Shown here one piece after another: positions 164 through 6,443 of a DNA stretch of 6,443 bases. Position 1 is the first letter of the stretch. Each line of letters starts with the position of its first letter. Origin of the DNA: a virus (taxonomy: Duplodnaviria > Heunggongvirae > Uroviricota > Caudoviricetes); IMG/VR virus record IMGVR_UViG_2698536392_000020; one strand, given 5' to 3'. Made by a program: the position numbers and the translations under genes. The notes under the pieces were generated by a model. The model was not told the DNA's origin. It saw nothing but the letters and a program-made list of their open reading frames with translations, and ran no database searches.

Positions 164-317
164 TTTTATATTGGCGAGGTGACGGGAGTTAAGTAGAATT
201 GCTGCGGGTGCTTGAGGCTATCTGCCTCAGGCATGAACACCAAAGGCAGATAGAGAAAAGCCCCAGTTAACATTACGCGTCCTGCAAGACGTTTAACATT
301 AATCTGAGGCTCAATCT

Positions 318-530
318 ATGAACGGCAAATCTAGGTTAGCCTCTTACGTGCCGAAAGGCAAGGAGAAGCAGGCTATGAAGCAGCAAAAGGCGATGTTAAT
401 CGCCCTGATCGTCATCTGTTTAACCGTCATAATGACGGCACTGGTAACGAGGAAAGACCTCTGCGAGGTACGAATCCGAACCGGCCAGACGGAGGTCGCT
501 GTCTTCACAGCTTACGAACCTGAGGAGTAA
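318..530 (+). CDS. mok-like in-frame N-terminal extension of hok (70 aa)
   Basis: ATG at 318 with a weak SD (TGAGG 305-309); the ORF shares frame and stop with hok. Chromosomal hok loci are annotated with such a Mok extension (as I recall, MokC is 69 aa against HokC 50 aa). Confidence 0.45.
   Translation: MNGKSRLASYVPKGKEKQAMKQQKAMLIALIVICLTVIMTALVTRKDLCEVRIRTGQTEVAVFTAYEPEE
375..530 (+). CDS. hokD: Hok/Gef-family type I toxin (51 aa), closest to HokD (RelF)
   Basis: Translation MKQQKAMLIALIVICLTVIMTALVTRKDLCEVRIRTGQTEVAVFTAYEPEE matches the Hok family (transmembrane helix followed by the conserved periplasmic Cys-containing tail). From memory it differs from K-12 HokD at about one residue. 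SD AGGAGA at 361-366, 8 nt before the ATG. Confidence 0.85.
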   Translation: MKQQKAMLIALIVICLTVIMTALVTRKDLCEVRIRTGQTEVAVFTAYEPEE

Positions 531-2039: not shown

Positions 2040-2411
2040 ATGCGTATAGAGTTTGTTTTGCCTTACCCGCCGACGGTGAACACCTACTGGCGACGTCGTG
2101 GCAGCACATATTTTGTATCAAAAGCCGGTGAGCGTTATCGCCGGGCTGTGGCGCTTATTGTTCGCCAGCAGCGGCTGAAATTAAGCCTGTCCGGACGGCT
2201 GGCAATAAAAATTATTGCAGAACCACCGGATAAGCGCCGCCGTGACCTGGACAACATTCTGAAAGCACCGCTGGATGCGCTGACGCATGCGGAAGTGCTC
2301 ATTGATGACGAGCAGTTTGATGAAATCAATATTGTGCGCGGTCAGCCTGTGCCAGGTGGACGGCTGGGCGTGAAGATTTACGAAATCAGAGGTGGTAACG
2401 ATGGCGCGTGA
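2040..2411 (+). CDS. rusA: RusA-family Holliday junction resolvase (crossover junction endodeoxyribonuclease)
   Basis: 123 aa; SD AAAGAGG at 2027-2033. Conserved RusA acidic motifs ([13 protein letters not shown] and IDDEQ) and overall similarity to K-12 RusA as remembered. Typical nin-region position immediately upstream of Q. Confidence 0.85.
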
Positions 2412-2772
2412 TATCCAGATGGTTCTTGAGCGATGGGGGGCATGGGCAGCAAATAATCATGAAGATGTAACATGGCCCTCGATAGCTGCTGGTTTTAAAG
2501 GATTAATCCCGACTAAAGTGAAATCACGTCCTCAGTGTTCTTATGATGACGCCATGATAATTTGTGGTTGTATGGCACGATTAAACAAGAATAATCAGTA
2601 TTTGCACGATTTGTTGGTGGATTATTACGTAGGTGGAATGACATTTATGGCTCTTGCACGTAAGCATAGATGTTCTGATGGGCTTATTGGTAAAAGGCTT
2701 TATAAAGCGGAAGGTATTATTGAAGGAATGCTTATGGCTCTGAATGTCCGGTTAGATATGGATATGCGGTAG
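2401..2772 (+). CDS. Q: Late-gene antiterminator Q, small Phage_antitermQ type (QuuD-like)
   Basis: About 123 aa from ATG 2401 ([25 protein letters not shown]...), resembling DLP12 QuuD as remembered. The ATG overlaps the rusA stop by 11 nt, which suggests translational coupling. The ORF-track start at GTG 2392 is a less likely alternative. Confidence 0.8.
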
Positions 2773-2865
2773 GGATATATAGTGATGAGGGTTATGTTTT
2801 CTGTGTTTATAATTAACATGTTTATTTTTTTTGATGGTCATGTATTGTGGAAGGTAGATAAAATG

Positions 2866-2894
2866 TTGCCTGGTGAATTGAAAGTATTGATAAT
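2866..2894 (+). promoter_or_regulatory. Candidate sigma70 promoter upstream of the CPBP gene
   Basis: -35 TTGCCT (2866-2871), 17-nt spacer, -10 GATAAT (2889-2894); followed by SD AAAAGGAG (2914-2921) and ATG 2926. A second possible -10, TATAAT at 2808-2813, lies 36 nt after the Q stop. Identified by eye only. Confidence 0.25.
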
Positions 2895-2925
2895 CAATCT
2901 TCATCATTAAATAAAAGGAGTGCTT

Positions 2926-3744
2926 ATGTGGATTGTGTTAGTACTGTCACTGTCAACTCTCAGTTGGCATAAGGTAGTGGCTTTTTCATTGTTGACGGTG
3001 TCTGTTGTCCTGGCTGTGCTTAATGATATTATTGATTGGTCGGTGTTGTTTTTTGTTGCTACAATCGTTTTTTTTATTATTTTGAAGTTCAACTGGAAAT
3101 ATAACGCCTGGGCTAAATCTATATATGAAGTTGGCATAGTTTTATCAGCCATAGCATTATCTTTCCATCTATGGCCAGGGTTTCACAATCCTGTAGTGCT
3201 AAATTCTGTTACTGTTGGCCCTCAAAGCACTCCCTATACAATGTATTTTAATTTTGATAAAGCGCTGGTGCCATTTTTGTTAGTCCTGTGTACATCTTCT
3301 TTGTTTAAAAAAGAAGTAAAATCAGAAGTGTCTTTGTGGAAGTGGGGGGCTCTGTCGCTCTCTGTTCCTCTTATCCTGTTTTTGGCTGTTTTTTTTGGTG
3401 GATTAAAGCCAGAGATTCATTTCCCTGAGTGGTTGCCAGAGTTTATATTGGCTAATTTGTTTTTTGTGTCTCTGGCAGAGGAATCATTATTTAGAGGGTA
3501 TATTCAATCACGGCTATCAGAAGTAACGTCTCCATTGGTTGCATTAATTGTGGCGGCTTTGTTGTTTGGTTTTTTTCACTATTCAGGTGGTGCTTTACTT
3601 GTATTATTTGCCACGTTATCTGGTGTTGTGTATGGATTGTCATGGATGTGGAGTAGGCGTTTGTGGGTTGCCACCCTTTTCCATTTTGGTTTGAATCTGT
3701 GTCACTTGTTATTCTTTACCTATCCATTTTTAAAACATAATTGA
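2926..3744 (+). CDS. CPBP-family (CAAX protease / Abi, PF02517-like) intramembrane metalloprotease
   Basis: Polytopic hydrophobic protein with the three CPBP signature motifs in order: EExxxR (AEESLFRGY), FxxxH (FGFFHYSGG) and HxxxN (FHFGLNL). Strong SD; ATG 2926 preferred over GTG 2920. AT-rich, unlike the flanking phage core. Confidence 0.8.
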   Translation: MWIVLVLSLSTLSWHKVVAFSLLTVSVVLAVLNDIIDWSVLFFVATIVFFIILKFNWKYNAWAKSIYEVGIVLSAIALSFHLWPGFHNPVVLNSVTVGPQSTPYTMYFNFDKALVPFLLVLCTSSLFKKEVKSEVSLWKWGALSLSVPLILFLAVFFGGLKPEIHFPEWLPEFILANLFFVSLAEESLFRGYIQSRLSEVTSPLVALIVAALLFGFFHYSGGALLVLFATLSGVVYGLSWMWSRRLWVATLFHFGLNLCHLLFFTYPFLKHN

Positions 3745-3884
3745 TTTTTTCTATGGTTTTAAATTTATAAGACTGAAAAATAGCAGGACGTGACATTTGC
3801 ATGAAAAATATGCACGGCAAAGCATTTACGTACGTAAAAAATCAGGTATGCTGTTAAGAGTGGTTATTTCGCCGCATAGCTTGA

Positions 3885-3907
3885 CCCCGCCTCTGAGCGG
3901 GTTTTTT
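3885..3907 (+). terminator. Rho-independent terminator
   Basis: Stem CCCGC (3886-3890), loop CTCTGA, stem GCGGG (3897-3901), followed by TTTTTT (3902-3907). Lies about 140 nt downstream of the CPBP stop. Confidence 0.65.
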
Positions 3908-4030
3908 GTGCCCGCAAAGTAGCGCAGTGCGTTAAATGTGCTGGTAGTTATTAATACAGGTCTTTCAGCTTGCTGGCTTTTTCGACAAGAGTTATTGGTG
4001 TGTCACGTTAACCGGAAAGGGTAAAAAGAC

Positions 4031-4270
4031 ATGCTGAAACAGCAGGATATGACAGAAACCGCCAGAGTTGTGTTTGATGAATTAAGCGTCACCGAACCGG
4101 CGACGGTCGGGGAGATTGCGCAGAATACGTACCTTTCACGCGAGCGCTGCCAGTTAATACTGACCCAGCTGGTTATGCGGGTCTGGCAGACTATCAGTTC
4201 GGTTGTTACAGACGCCTTCAGTCCTGAAGGCTTTTTTATTTGTGGTAAATGGGCGGCTGGTGGGTGTTAG
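4031..4270 (+). CDS. Small hypothetical protein (79 aa) with a helix-turn-helix-like segment
   Basis: ORF with a weak SD; the segment TVGEIAQNTYLSRERCQLILTQLV looks HTH-like. Codon composition looks coding. However, a terminator-like hairpin with T-tract (4214-4241) sits inside the last 20 codons, so the true 3' end, or the coding status, is uncertain. Confidence 0.4.
   Translation: MLKQQDMTETARVVFDELSVTEPATVGEIAQNTYLSRERCQLILTQLVMRVWQTISSVVTDAFSPEGFFICGKWAAGGC
4214..4241 (+). terminator. Terminator-like hairpin with T-tract
   Basis: GCCTTCA (4214-4220), loop GTCC, TGAAGGC (4225-4231), followed by TTTTTTATTT (4232-4241). Confidence 0.45.
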
Positions 4271-4298
4271 CGGCACCTGTCAGTCCTTTGCTTATGTG

Positions 4299-4329
4299 TT
4301 GATGATAATTTACCTTTTGGGGCTATAAT
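4299..4329 (+). promoter_or_regulatory. Candidate sigma70 promoter for the AraC-family gene
   Basis: -35 TTGATG (4299-4304), 19-nt spacer (longer than optimal), consensus -10 TATAAT (4324-4329). By eye only. Confidence 0.25.
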
Positions 4330-4364
4330 TGAACTAACCAATTGCTAATGAAAGTAAAATTATA

Positions 4365-5078
4365 ATGGTTGTTGTCTGTTCAGTTATCATGGTTTGCTCC
4401 CCAATTAATATTTTTCTTGAAAAGGATACGTTGTCACTTAAGCCCGGCTCAGTCGTTCTGGCCACCAAATGCATCAGGGCGCTTTTCCTTATGCATTATG
4501 GCAAAGTTAAAATTTTCGATATAAACCATTCCATAGTAAGTCAATATCTGGAAATTCAGCATAAGCTGACAAGAACTCATCTGACTGACGTTCCGCTTTA
4601 TCTGTCACTGGAACCCAACAACCCTGCGTTGGCTGAGGCTTTAATTACCAGCCAGAGATTTTCCGGAGATACCACGGATATGTTTCTTATGATGGCATGC
4701 CTGTCGCTGTTTGAATCAGATGAACGGATATTATTATTTTTAAGTGGATGTTTATCCAGTATAAGTGCCAAAGTCAGGGCGATAATTCAGACAGATATAT
4801 CAGCAAGCTGGACGCTTGGTGCGATTGCGTTACGCCTGCATATGAGTGAGAGTTTGTTAAAGATAAAACTGAAAAATGAAGGGCGCATGTTCAGTCGCTT
4901 GTTGCTGGAAGAGCGGATGCGTGTTGCTGTCAATATGTTATGTTCCCGGCATGGATATGGACAGGCTGTAGCAGAAAAATGCGGTTATTCAAGCTGGTCC
5001 TACTTTATTTCTGTATTTCACCGCTATTATGGCTTCCCGCCAGACAGATATGTATCCAGGCAAGGGCTTGATTATTGA
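4365..5078 (+). CDS. AraC/XylS-family transcriptional regulator of the YdeO/AppY/GadX type
   Basis: 237 aa. The N-terminus MVVVCSVIMVCS resembles the MSLVCSVIFI of YdeO and MDYVCSVVFI of AppY as remembered. The C-terminus has the AraC double-HTH (..MSESLLKIKLKNEGRMFSRLLLEERMRVAVNML...AEKCGYSSWSYFISVFHRYYGFPP). AT-rich. No recognisable SD. Confidence 0.85.
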   Translation: MVVVCSVIMVCSPINIFLEKDTLSLKPGSVVLATKCIRALFLMHYGKVKIFDINHSIVSQYLEIQHKLTRTHLTDVPLYLSLEPNNPALAEALITSQRFSGDTTDMFLMMACLSLFESDERILLFLSGCLSSISAKVRAIIQTDISASWTLGAIALRLHMSESLLKIKLKNEGRMFSRLLLEERMRVAVNMLCSRHGYGQAVAEKCGYSSWSYFISVFHRYYGFPPDRYVSRQGLDY

Positions 5079-5106
5079 TTTTCATCTGATTATTATTTTT
5101 TGACCC

Positions 5107-5178
5107 GGCCCTTTAGCTCAGTGGTGAGAGCGACTCATAATCGCCAGGTCGCTGGTTCAAATCCAGCAAGGGCCACCA
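5107..5178 (+). tRNA. ileZ: tRNA with CAU anticodon (Ile2/ileX-like by sequence), possibly structurally defective
   Basis: Acceptor stem GGCCCTT/AAGGGCC, D-arm GCTC-AGTGGTGA-GAGC, anticodon loop CTCATAA, T-arm GCTGG-TTCAAAT-CCAGC, discriminator A and encoded CCA. Only 14 nt lie between the D-arm and the variable loop instead of the usual 18, so the anticodon stem is shortened to 3-4 bp. Confidence 0.6.
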
Positions 5179-5185
5179 TCACATA

Positions 5186-5262
5186 CCGCCATTAGCTCAT
5201 CAGGAAAGAGCGCCAGCTTTCGAAGCTGGTTGCGCGGAGTTCGGGTCCCCGAAGGCGGTCCA
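5186..5262 (+). tRNA. argN: tRNA-Arg (anticodon UCG)
   Basis: Cloverleaf by eye: acceptor CCGCCAT/AAGGCGG (one A-A mismatch), D-arm GCTC-ATCAGGAAA-GAGC, anticodon arm CCAGC-TTTCGAA-GCTGG, T-arm with TTCGGGT loop and one mismatch, CCA encoded. The deviations make it less certain than the next tRNA. Confidence 0.6.
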
Positions 5263-5275
5263 TTATCTGTATCCT

Positions 5276-5352
5276 GCGTTGTTAGCTCAGCCGGACAGAG
5301 CAATTGCCTTCTAAGCAATCGGTCACTGGTTCGAATCCAGTACAACGCGCCA
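5276..5352 (+). tRNA. argO: tRNA-Arg (anticodon UCU)
   Basis: Clean cloverleaf: acceptor GCGTTGT/ACAACGC, D-arm TAGCTCAGCCGGACAGAGC, anticodon arm ATTGC-CTTCTAA-GCAAT, T-arm ACTGG-TTCGAAT-CCAGT, discriminator G, CCA encoded. Confidence 0.85.
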
Positions 5353-5366
5353 CACTTATTTTCCCT

Positions 5367-5392
5367 GGCTCGCTTTTGCGGGCCTTTTTTTT
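5367..5392 (+). terminator. Rho-independent terminator after the tRNA cluster
   Basis: Stem GGCTCGC (5367-5373), loop TTTT, stem GCGGGCC (5378-5384), followed by eight T (5385-5392). Confidence 0.75.
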
Positions 5393-5619
5393 AAATGTCT
5401 CACAATTCAGGCGGTTGACTGTTGTCTGGTTTGCGGGGAGTTTGTTAAAAGAAACTGGCATGGTGAATCCCCCTGTGCGGAGGGGCAATCAGCGAGTAGG
5501 TATATGGGATAATCGCGGATTCAGGTGCTGGTACTGAATTCACCGGGAGGCACCCAGCACCATGCAATGGCACATAGCGCCACTCTCCAGCCCCTCTCCG
5601 GAGGGGCTTTCTTATGGAC

Positions 5620-5648
5620 AAAAAAAGCCCGCGCAGGGAGACGCGGGC
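5620..5648 (-). terminator. Minus-strand intrinsic terminator-like element
   Basis: On the + strand, seven A (5620-5626) precede an inverted repeat GCCCGCG (5627-5633), 8-nt loop, CGCGGGC (5642-5648). Read on the minus strand this is a GC-rich hairpin followed by U7. Confidence 0.45.
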
Positions 5649-5841
5649 GGCAAGGAATAAACAACAAAACGTGAAGTAATATTTCAGCTGGCGAATAATA
5701 TCCGACAGTAATCACTCTGCGCAATAGCGCGGCCTTTTTCGTATTGCGGGCTGTTGTCTCTCTTCTGCCATTGTCCTGTAACTTCCGGACTTCAGCCCGC
5801 TCCTCATTTTACTCACAATATTATCCCGGCCGGGAGGATTC

Positions 5842-6443
5842 ATGGCATTTAAACACTATGATGTTGTCAGGGCGGCGTCGCCGTCAGACCTTGCGGAAAA
5901 GCTGACACACAAACTGAAAGAGGGCTGGCAGCCATACGGCGGACCGGTTGCCATTACGCCGTACACACTGATGCAGGCGGTGGCTATTGAAGGAGATCCA
6001 CAGGTCGGCCCTTCATCTGAGCCGGACTGGTTCTACGTGGTTGTGCTTGCCGGACAGTCCAACGGCATGGCCTACGGTGAAGGGCTTCCGTTACCGGATT
6101 CTTACGATGCTCCGGATCCGCGCATTAAACAGCTGGCGCGCCGCAGCACGGTAACTCCGGGTGGAGAGAGTTGTACGTATAACGACATCATCCCGGCTGA
6201 CCACTGCCTGCATGATGTGCAGGATATGAGTACGCTGAATCATCCGAAGGCAGACCTGAGCAAAGGGCAGTACGGCTGTGTCGGCCAGGGCTTACATATT
6301 GCCAAAAAACTGCTTCCGTATATCCCGAATAACGCGGGGATCCTGCTGGTACCATGCTGTCGTGGTGGTTCTGCATTCACCCAGGGCGTTGAGGGGACAT
6401 TCAGTGCGGACACTGGGGCCAGCCAGGATTCGGCACGCTGGGG
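5842..6443 (+). CDS. nanS: NanS-p-like sialate 9-O-acetylesterase (N-terminal DUF1737-like region plus SGNH esterase domain), 5' partial; continues past the window end
   Basis: SD GGGAGG at 5832-5837, ATG 5842; the frame is open to the window end (200 codons). Contains GQSNGMAYGEGLPLPD...PRIKQLAR...DVQDM...ILLVPCCRGGSAF, closely resembling E. coli NanS/YjhS as remembered. Occupies the position downstream of the stx site in Stx-phage-like prophages. Confidence 0.85.
   Translation, partial: MAFKHYDVVRAASPSDLAEKLTHKLKEGWQPYGGPVAITPYTLMQAVAIEGDPQVGPSSEPDWFYVVVLAGQSNGMAYGEGLPLPDSYDAPDPRIKQLARRSTVTPGGESCTYNDIIPADHCLHDVQDMSTLNHPKADLSKGQYGCVGQGLHIAKKLLPYIPNNAGILLVPCCRGGSAFTQGVEGTFSADTGASQDSARW

What the first reader, a model, noticed from the sequence alone, without database searches (positions are those of the whole stretch)
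4365..5078. Prophage-encoded YdeO/AppY-like AraC regulator immediately upstream of the tRNA cluster
The N-terminal MxxVCSVxxxC signature and the C-terminal double HTH place it in the acid-resistance regulator subgroup (YdeO, AppY, GadX, GadW). From memory, prophage-borne members of this group (PatE and the Psr regulators in EHEC) rewire host acid resistance and type III secretion, so this gene is a candidate lysogenic-conversion regulator. I cannot verify that relationship without a search.
Basis: partly seen in the sequence, partly recalled or inferred. Interest (0 to 1): 0.6.

Follow-up and report, generated by a model that had tools for sequence, protein, structure and literature searches.

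The report
Known prophage regulator gene psrA

Summary
The ORF at 4365-5078 (+) is real: 237 aa, with a C-terminal AraC-type double HTH and an N-terminal MxxVCSV motif, ending 28 nt before three tRNA genes. It differs by one residue (R173H) from Sakai ECs_1087 and from the EDL933 copy. A 2026 paper from the lab that named the Psr family calls ecs1087 psrA. Published qPCR primers for z1789 (= psrA in two reviews) map onto this ORF. It is 90.7% identical to the OI-57 copy (PsrB), 37% to the OI-8 protein (PatE), 35% to GadW, 31% to YdeO and 29% to AppY; GadX aligns only in the DNA-binding half. Reviews report that PsrA/PsrB raise gadE and yhiF expression, indirectly repressing LEE type III secretion, and that PsrB binds the hdeA and gadE promoters. 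The window is 100% identical to two O165:H25 STEC genomes, where it lies in an IS-riddled prophage remnant with a second psr copy 10 kb away. The gene sits in a recurring cassette (TrmB-like ORF, psr, ileZ-argN-argO, terminator); in a Stx2k phage this cassette lies directly upstream of stx2. The published LEE-repressing sRNA EvrS lies about 380 nt downstream; its paper never calls the neighbouring gene PsrA. Verdict: observation confirmed, interpretation supported, already known.

The parts
4365..5078 (+). psrA coding sequence, 237 aa plus stop. It carries the R173 allele; O157:H7 has H173, from a single G/A difference at nt 521.
   Evidence: ORF. 236/237 identity to Sakai ECs_1087 (extended to the upstream ATG) and to EDL933 WP_000261909.1; the single nucleotide difference. 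z1789 primers map at 4726-4744 and 4867-4884.
4365..4763 (+). N-terminal domain (residues 1-133), beginning with the MxxVCSVI motif. Presumed regulatory or dimerisation domain; its fold is not resolved.
   Evidence: Motif shared with YdeO, AppY, GadW and PsrB. The AlphaFold model shows beta-strands at 3-54, but pLDDT is below 50 for residues 59-130. No solved homologue for this half.
4764..5063 (+). AraC/XylS-type DNA-binding domain (residues ~134-233) with two helix-turn-helix motifs.
   Evidence: Pfam HTH_18 and HTH_AraC. PDB 3mkl, the GadX DNA-binding domain: E 1e-18 by sequence; rmsd 1.5 A, TM 0.85-0.88, 43-44% identity by structure. pLDDT is 80-94.
4302..4329 (+). Predicted sigma-70 promoter of psrA (ATGATA, 16 nt, TATAAT), 36 nt upstream of the ATG.
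   Evidence: Best-scoring promoter-like site in 2300-6000, 10 of 12 matches. The -10 hexamer is invariant in five cassette copies and the -35 has one change in one copy. Prediction only; no transcript data examined.
4214..4231 (+). Terminator-like hairpin with a T-run upstream of the psrA promoter, inside the TrmB-like ORF. It would insulate psrA from upstream transcription unless that transcription is antiterminated.
   Evidence: The stem is retained with a different loop in the Stx2k phage copy.
4031..4270 (+). Small TrmB-like ORF (79 aa as read here) forming the upstream part of the recurring psr cassette. PGAP marks it as frameshifted in this strain and in O157:H7.
   Evidence: ORF. PGAP annotations. 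Intact versions occur in copy 2 of the source strain and in the Stx2k phage. No Pfam hit at E <= 0.01.
3886..5393 (+). Extent of the recurring psr cassette: terminator, TrmB-like ORF, psr, three tRNAs, terminator.
   Evidence: blastn breakpoints at 3886/3897/3925 to 5393, with 87-92% identity to EDL933 OI-57, phage phiSTEC1575-Stx2k and the second copy in strain 2013C-4830, while the Q genes upstream differ.
5107..5178 (+). ileZ-type tRNA (anticodon CAT; PGAP calls it tRNA-Ile). Here it is 72 nt with a 4-nt deletion and is probably defective.
   Evidence: The deletion of one GAGC unit is seen only in the window copy. It folds with a non-canonical anticodon arm.
5186..5262 (+). argN-type tRNA-Arg (anticodon TCG).
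5276..5352 (+). argO-type tRNA-Arg (anticodon TCT).
5367..5384 (+). Intrinsic-terminator-like hairpin with T8, closing the psr-tRNA unit.
   Evidence: Conserved in the other cassette copies.
5429..5619 (+). sRNA EvrS (Esr023), Rfam family STnc100. The mature 154-nt RNA is estimated at about 5460-5613. It is a neighbour of psrA, not part of it, and is also a published negative regulator of LEE.
   Evidence: Rfam RF02076, 130.6 bits against a gathering score of 47. The published EvrS qPCR primers, RACE primers and 46-nt Northern probe all match with 0 mismatches at 5464-5599. Terminator at 5589-5608.

Best explanation
[quoted passage not shown] It is a two-domain AraC/XylS-family transcription factor of the GadW/YdeO/AppY/PatE branch. 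Its GadX-like C-terminal double HTH binds AT-rich promoter DNA of the host GAD acid-fitness island. This raises expression of gadE and yhiF (dctR), and GadE/YhiF in turn repress the LEE operons. The net effect of the prophage gene is higher acid resistance and lower type III secretion. Shown here: the identity of the gene, its domain make-up, its prophage cassette context, and its distribution. Taken from the literature on O157:H7: the regulatory targets and phenotypes. Inferred: that the O165:H25 allele behaves the same way; that it is transcribed in the lysogen from its own conserved promoter at 4302-4329; and that, being AT-rich, it is subject to H-NS/Hha silencing.
For: The ORF and its domains are. 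The protein is 99.6% (236/237) identical to Sakai ECs_1087 and EDL933 WP_000261909.1, and 90.7% to the OI-57 copy. PMC13502914, from the lab that named the family, writes 'psrA (ecs1087, Sp4)' and describes a PsrA/GadE cascade that represses the LEE. Reviews PMC10877973 and PMC8565820 give psrA = z1789, PsrB = z2104 at 90% identity, action via GadE and YhiF, PsrB binding to the hdeA and gadE promoters, and a role for psrA in persistence in sheep. Published z1789 qPCR primers map inside the ORF. Gene order is the same as Sakai Sp4 and EDL933 CP-933M at 98.7% DNA identity. The modelled DNA-binding domain superposes on the GadX DNA-binding domain at 1.5 A. GC content is 39-43% against 51-56% in the flanks. 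The -10 hexamer is conserved across all cassette copies. The host lineage O165:H25 has LEE (eae epsilon) and gad, so both arms of the circuit are present.
Against: No functional data exist for this allele or this strain. It carries R173 where O157:H7 has H173, though this position varies across the family (R/H/G/L/Y/N). In the source genome the surrounding prophage is decayed and IS-interrupted, and no Pch/PerC regulator or effector gene is annotated in the 20 kb fetched on either side of the window, so its regulatory setting may differ from Sp4. The primary papers (Tree et al. 2011; Yang et al. 2015; Bender et al. 2012) were not held, so the mechanism rests on reviews and on a later paper from the same lab. 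The promoter is a consensus match only.
Confidence: 0.93

Rival explanations
1. The gene is intact but functionally silent or diverged in this O165:H25 background. On this reading it is an H-NS-silenced passenger in a dead prophage remnant, or its R173 allele or altered context gives it a regulon different from that of O157 PsrA.
For: The prophage around it is fragmented by IS3 elements and has a frameshifted nanS-p and a truncated lysozyme. The adjacent ileZ tRNA carries a 4-nt deletion. A second psr paralogue lies 10 kb away and could be redundant. The gene is AT-rich. In O157, deleting psrB alone had little effect, so paralogues are not all equally active.
Against: The ORF has no frameshift or stop and differs from the experimentally active allele by one residue at a variable position. 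The promoter -10 and the start codon are identical to those in Sakai.
Confidence: 0.05
2. It is an orthologue or functional replacement of a core acid-resistance regulator (YdeO, AppY, GadW or GadX), not a distinct prophage family.
For: The best NCBIfam hit is the YdeO model, aligned over the full length. The N-terminal motif is shared.
Against: Identity is only 29-35%. The YdeO score is 104 bits against a cutoff of 348, and the GadX score is 88 against 500. The gene sits in a lambdoid prophage cassette rather than at the ydeO, appY or gad loci.
Confidence: 0.01
3. It is a Rns/ToxT-type direct virulence activator or repressor that binds LEE promoters itself and responds to a fatty-acid ligand.
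For: Full-length sequence and Foldseek hits to Rns, CsvR and ToxT.
Against: These hits have 14-22% identity and 15-17 A rmsd, and are driven by the DNA-binding domain. The N-terminal model is low-confidence. The literature describes the effect on LEE as indirect, via GadE and YhiF.
Confidence: 0.01

Closest known systems
PsrA (z1789 / ECs1087), prophage-encoded secretion regulator A of EHEC O157:H7
   Same: 236 of 237 residues. Same gene order (hok, DUF968, RusA, Q, CPBP protease, TrmB-like ORF, psrA, ileZ-argN-argO, EvrS, nanS-p). Same promoter region.
   Different: R173 instead of H173. The host is O165:H25. The prophage is a decayed, IS-interrupted remnant beside a truncated ynfG rather than the yccA-adjacent Sp4/CP-933M, and the ileZ tRNA next to it has a 4-nt deletion.
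PsrB (z2104, OI-57 of EDL933)
   Same: 90.7% identical, same length, same cassette with tRNAs, and the same published pathway through gadE, yhiF and hdeA.
   Different: 22 substitutions, five of them in the DNA-binding half, including W211R in the second recognition helix. The OI-57 cassette has a different Q region, and PGAP annotates only two tRNA genes there; its middle tRNA region is diverged.
PatE (z0321, OI-8 / CP-933H)
   Same: A prophage-borne AraC regulator of the same branch, with a full-length alignment. It is published as an activator of gadE and hdeAB and a negative regulator of LEE genes.
   Different: Only 37% identical, 247 aa, and located in a different prophage (thrW-adjacent) without the tRNA cassette.
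GadW, YdeO, AppY and GadX of E. coli K-12
   Same: Same AraC/XylS architecture. The MxxVCSV N-terminus is shared, except with GadX. The DNA-binding domain is 43-44% identical to that of GadX. All act on the GAD acid-fitness island. AppY is also prophage-borne, in DLP12.
   Different: 29-35% identity, scores below all NCBIfam equivalog cutoffs, and different loci.

Membership tests
Psr family (PsrA/PsrB prophage-encoded secretion regulators) | Near-identity to the reference PsrA (ECs1087 / z1789), and about 90% identity to PsrB | tested here: met
   99.6% to ECs_1087 and the EDL933 copy; 90.7% to the OI-57 copy. z1789 primers map in the ORF.
Psr family (PsrA/PsrB prophage-encoded secretion regulators) | AraC/XylS-type C-terminal double helix-turn-helix | tested here: met
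   Pfam HTH_18 and HTH_AraC above their cutoffs. GadX DNA-binding domain match.
Psr family (PsrA/PsrB prophage-encoded secretion regulators) | Found only on prophages | tested here: met
   Lambdoid late-regulatory context in the window and in Sakai, EDL933, O165:H25 and a Stx2k phage. 1323 of 1324 matching places are chromosomal.
Psr family (PsrA/PsrB prophage-encoded secretion regulators) | Association with effector loci and Pch (PerC-family) regulators on the same prophage | tested here: inconclusive
   pchA lies 4 kb downstream in Sakai Sp4, and PerC-family genes are present in EDL933 CP-933M and OI-57. No PerC or effector gene is annotated in the 20 kb fetched on either side of the window in the decayed O165:H25 locus.
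Psr family (PsrA/PsrB prophage-encoded secretion regulators) | Activates gadE and yhiF and indirectly represses LEE type III secretion | not testable with these tools
   Known for the O157:H7 alleles from the literature. It needs a wet-lab test for this allele.
YdeO (NCBIfam NF007407 equivalog) | Score at or above the curated cutoff of 348 bits | tested here: not met
   104.1 bits; 31% identity.
GadX (NCBIfam NF007432 equivalog) | Score at or above the curated cutoff of 500 bits, with a full-length match | tested here: not met
   88.4 bits, covering residues 107-232 only.
Rns/ToxT-type AraC virulence regulators | N-terminal ligand-binding (fatty-acid pocket) domain superposable on Rns or ToxT | tested here: inconclusive
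   Foldseek hits have 15-17 A rmsd, and the N-terminal model has pLDDT below 50 over residues 59-130.

The most novel reading that the evidence does not exclude
psrA and the sRNA EvrS, about 380 nt apart and separated only by the ileZ-argN-argO tRNAs, may form one linked prophage module. It would dampen the LEE by two routes: a protein acting via GadE/YhiF and an sRNA acting via z2269 mRNA. The adjacent tRNAs may also supply the AUA and AGA codons that psrA uses unusually often. The EvrS paper does not recognise its neighbour z1789 as PsrA, so this linkage appears not to have been examined.
Probability: 0.15. Interest if true: 0.4.

Novelty: already known. Interest (0 to 1): 0.15.

Why it matters
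PsrA is one of the ways EHEC prophages rewire core host regulation, coupling acid resistance to the timing of type III secretion and contributing to persistence in ruminants. Recognising this ORF as psrA mainly has annotation value, in three respects. PGAP labels it only 'helix-turn-helix domain-containing protein'. The Sakai annotation starts 42 codons too late. The z1789 / 'OI-50, CP-933N' label used in reviews maps, in the corrected EDL933 assembly, to the yccA-adjacent prophage (CP-933M / Sp4 equivalent). There is also a modest new link: the published LEE-repressing sRNA EvrS is the immediate neighbour of psrA, and a close psr homologue sits directly upstream of stx2k in a converting phage.

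Tried and rejected
(1) The primary papers (Tree 2011, PMC7099609; Yang 2015, PMC4288888; Bender 2012, PMC3416394) are not held, so the mechanism is cited from reviews and from a 2026 paper by the same lab.

(2) The original EDL933 record NC_002655 is not in the collection. In the corrected assembly, the potC-adjacent prophage expected to hold z1789 has no AraC gene. I resolved this by mapping published primers.

(3) I tested whether the sRNA HnrS, which the 2026 paper links to psrA expression, lies in this window. It does not: it is on Sp9, Sp10 and Sp12.

(4) I considered that the STnc100/EvrS element marks the Q-dependent late promoter pR', which would place psrA between Q and pR'. Phage mEp460 also has a tRNA-like stretch between Q and this element, so this could not be decided and I make no claim.

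(5) The AlphaFold prediction from a 15-sequence family alignment gave a confident DNA-binding domain but an unreliable N-terminal domain, so nothing can be concluded about a ligand pocket.

(6) The readings 'YdeO/AppY/GadX orthologue' and 'pseudogene' are rejected on scores and on ORF integrity.

Full report
OBSERVATION. The window contains an ATG-to-TGA ORF at exactly 4365..5078 on the + strand, encoding 237 aa. Pfam places HTH_18 at residues 155-230 and HTH_AraC at 202-224, both above their gathering scores. The N-terminus is MVVVCSVIMVC. ARAGORN and Rfam find three tRNA genes at 5107-5178 (anticodon CAT), 5186-5262 (TCG) and 5276-5352 (TCT), starting 28 nt after the stop codon. Upstream on the same strand are hok/sok, a DUF968 protein, RusA, a Q antiterminator and a CPBP/CAAX-type intramembrane protease. 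Downstream begins a NanS-p-type esterase gene. The description 'prophage-encoded AraC regulator immediately upstream of a tRNA cluster' is therefore correct in every part.

IDENTITY. The ORF matches 726 of 5426 complete E. coli genomes, typically at two places per genome. PGAP annotates it only as 'helix-turn-helix domain-containing protein'. The whole window is 100% identical to strains 2013C-4830 and 2012C-4227, both O165:H25 STEC, and 98.7% identical to Sakai prophage Sp4. In Sakai the same gene order ends in ECs_1087, an 'AraC-family transcriptional regulator', followed by ileZ1, argN1 and argO1. Translating the reference loci gives these identities:
- Sakai ECs_1087 (read from the upstream ATG) and EDL933 WP_000261909.1: 236/237 identical. 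The only difference is R173H, caused by one G/A change.
- The 237-aa gene in EDL933 OI-57: 90.7%.
- The AraC gene of the thrW-adjacent OI-8 prophage: 37%.
- GadW 35%, YdeO 31%, AppY 29%, all over the full length.
- GadX: 38% over the C-terminal 154 residues only.

The 2026 paper from the Tree laboratory, which named the family, writes 'psrA (ecs1087, Sp4)'. Two reviews give psrA = z1789, PsrB = z2104 on OI-57 with 90% identity to PsrA, and PatE = z0321 on OI-8. These figures fit the measured identities.

A NOMENCLATURE SNAG, RESOLVED. The reviews place z1789 on OI-50 / CP-933N. In the corrected EDL933 assembly (CP008957), the potC-adjacent prophage that carries nleL, espN and espK has no AraC gene. 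The gene lies instead in the yccA-adjacent prophage, the Sp4 equivalent. The supplement of PMC11774850 lists qPCR primers for z1789. They map inside the window ORF at 4726-4744 and 4867-4884 and to the CP-933M locus. The single mismatch in the forward primer is also present against EDL933 itself, so it is a typo in the supplement. The primers find nothing in the potC prophage. So z1789 = ECs1087 = this gene, and the 'OI-50' label reflects the older assembly.

FAMILY STRUCTURE. A search of 5.8 billion proteins returned only 53 relatives, all that carry a source name being from E. coli or Shigella. There is a 99% cluster with 2285 members, a PsrB-like group at 86-90%, further groups at 74-79%, 63% and 54-58%, and a PatE-like group at 39%. 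This agrees with the reviews' statement that six additional Psr homologues exist. Many database entries are 195 aa long, starting at M43 as in the Sakai annotation. Three things argue that the 237-aa form is the real protein: the first 42 residues are conserved across the family; they carry the MxxVCSVI motif shared with YdeO, AppY and GadW; and they align to the YdeO model from position 1.

STRUCTURE. Only the DNA-binding half has solved relatives: the GadX C-terminal domain (3mkl, E 1e-18), then Rns, CsvR and ToxT. An AlphaFold model built from the family alignment is confident for residues ~134-233 (pLDDT 80-94). That region superposes on 3mkl at 1.5 A with 43-44% identity. Residues 59-130 have pLDDT below 50, and the full-length matches to Rns and ToxT have 15-17 A rmsd. 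Nothing reliable can be said about a ligand pocket. W211, in the second recognition helix, is unique to the PsrA cluster. PsrB-like proteins have R there and other groups K, Q, L, V or T. It is a candidate for the reported functional difference between PsrA and PsrB.

HOW IT WORKS. From the literature on O157:H7, PsrA and PsrB raise expression of GadE and YhiF, which repress LEE operons, so type III secretion falls. Deleting psrA raises secretion. psrA contributes to persistence in sheep. PsrB binds the hdeA (-132 to -45) and gadE promoters and increases acid survival, and PatE behaves similarly. PsrA/GadE are reported to be activated after attachment to host cells. The O165:H25 host lineage has LEE (eae epsilon) and gad, so both arms of the circuit are present.

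What I infer from the sequence:
- The gene is 39-43% GC against 51-56% in the flanks. This is typical of H-NS/Hha-silenced DNA and consistent with the reported up-regulation of psrA when the anti-Hha sRNA HnrS is expressed.
- The best promoter-like site in the region (ATGATA, 16 nt, TATAAT, at 4302-4329) lies 36 nt upstream of the ATG. Terminator-like hairpins at 3886-3901 and 4214-4231 precede it.
- The -10 hexamer and the start codon are invariant in five cassette copies that are otherwise 87-92% identical; the -35 has a single change in the Stx2k phage copy.

psrA is therefore probably an autonomous moron transcribed in the lysogen. This is a prediction; I examined no transcript data.

THE CASSETTE AND ITS NEIGHBOURS. 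blastn breakpoints define a recurring unit at window ~3886-5393: TrmB-like small ORF, psr, three tRNAs and a terminator. It is present in EDL933 OI-57, as a second copy 10 kb away in the source strain, and in phage phiSTEC1575-Stx2k, while the Q genes upstream differ. In the Stx2k phage the psr homologue (89% to this protein, 92% to PsrB) and the tRNAs sit directly upstream of stx2A/B.

Downstream of the cassette, Rfam finds STnc100 at 5429-5619 with 130.6 bits. The published primers, RACE primers and 46-nt Northern probe for the sRNA EvrS (Esr023) all match here without mismatch. EvrS is reported as a 154-nt RNA lying between z1789 and z1793 that destabilises z2269 mRNA and so lowers LEE expression. 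That paper calls z1789 'a transcriptional regulator' and never mentions PsrA. Two published negative regulators of the LEE are thus about 380 nt apart. The contiguous psrA-tRNA-EvrS stretch occurs in 692 of 5426 complete genomes, whereas the tRNA/EvrS part alone is far more widespread. Whether the two are functionally coupled is unknown. I rate it as the most novel reading not excluded, with low probability.

SOURCE-STRAIN PECULIARITIES. In 2013C-4830 the window lies in an IS3-interrupted prophage remnant beside a truncated ynfG, with a frameshifted nanS-p and a truncated lysozyme. This fits the reported high IS load and absence of iee in O165:H25. The ileZ-type tRNA in the window lacks 4 nt (one GAGC of a GAGCGAGC repeat) that the four other copies have. 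This removes the 5' strand of the anticodon stem. psrA itself uses ATA for 7 of 17 Ile codons and AGA/AGG for 6 of 14 Arg codons; ATA and AGA are the codons read by ileZ and argO.

VERDICT. Novelty: already known. Interest is low. What remains of value is annotation correction (gene name, start codon, O-island assignment) and the unremarked adjacency of psrA to EvrS and, in one phage, to stx2k.

Noticed in passing
window 5429-5619 (+): Rfam STnc100 (130.6 bits) is the published EHEC sRNA EvrS/Esr023: its primers, RACE primers and Northern probe all match exactly. The EvrS paper does not recognise the neighbouring gene z1789 as PsrA. Both are negative regulators of the LEE.
   Followed up: yes
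window 5107-5178 (+): The ileZ-type tRNA(CAT) is 72 nt instead of 76. It lacks one GAGC unit of a GAGCGAGC repeat that is present in Sakai Sp4, EDL933 OI-57, the Stx2k phage and the second copy in the same strain. The 5' strand of the anticodon stem is lost, so the tRNA is probably non-functional. The Sakai Sp4 copy instead has A rather than G at position 1.
   Followed up: partly
window 4365-5078 (+): psrA is rich in the rare codons read by the adjacent tRNAs: ATA is 7 of 17 Ile codons, and AGA plus AGG are 6 of 14 Arg codons.
   Followed up: partly
window 4995-4997 (codon 211 of psrA): W211, in the second HTH recognition helix, is unique to the PsrA cluster. PsrB-like proteins have R and other Psr groups have K, Q, L, V or T. 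It may underlie the PsrA/PsrB functional differences.
   Followed up: no
L013 (phage phiSTEC1575-Stx2k) 6121-8802: A TrmB-like ORF, a psr homologue (89% to the window protein, 92% to PsrB) and three tRNAs lie directly upstream of stx2A/stx2B in a Stx2k-converting phage.
   Followed up: partly
L010 (strain 2013C-4830) 10417-30312: The source strain has two psr cassettes 10 kb apart (the second protein is 99% identical to PsrB). They lie in a tandem, IS3-interrupted prophage remnant next to a truncated ynfG, and are followed by an 8.4-kb LPD38-domain gene.
   Followed up: partly
L003 (EDL933 CP008957, 1625001-1675000) compared with L009: Reviews place z1789/psrA, and the EvrS paper places EvrS, on CP-933N (the reviews call it OI-50). 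In the corrected EDL933 assembly the potC-adjacent prophage has no AraC gene and only a diverged EvrS-like copy. The exact sequences are in the yccA-adjacent prophage (CP-933M / Sp4 equivalent).
   Followed up: yes
L002 (Sakai) 18804-19391, equivalent to window 4491-5078: The Sakai annotation of ECs_1087 starts at M43 (195 aa), and many database entries share this short form. The conserved N-terminal 42 residues argue for the 237-aa form.
   Followed up: partly
window 2920-3744 (+): A CPBP/CAAX-type intramembrane glutamic protease gene (Rce1-like) with 35-39% GC lies between Q and the psr cassette. It is a second AT-rich moron of unknown role.
   Followed up: no
window 206-530 (+): A hok/sok type I toxin-antitoxin: Rfam sok at 206-380 (111.7 bits) and a Hok/Gef ORF at 318-530. 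A sub-threshold isrK-like match follows at 539-620.
   Followed up: no
window 4031-4270 (+): A small TrmB-like ORF upstream of psrA is part of the conserved cassette. PGAP marks it as frameshifted here and in O157:H7, but it is intact in the second copy and in the Stx2k phage.
   Followed up: no
window 2392-2411: The Q antiterminator ORF (2392-2772) overlaps the end of rusA (2040-2411). The blastn breakpoint with other prophages falls at ~2381-2386, so Q modules are exchanged precisely at this junction.
   Followed up: partly
window 5627-5648 (-): A strong minus-strand terminator-like hairpin (GCCCGCG...CGCGGGC followed by T7) lies immediately after the EvrS terminator, giving a back-to-back terminator pair.
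   Followed up: no
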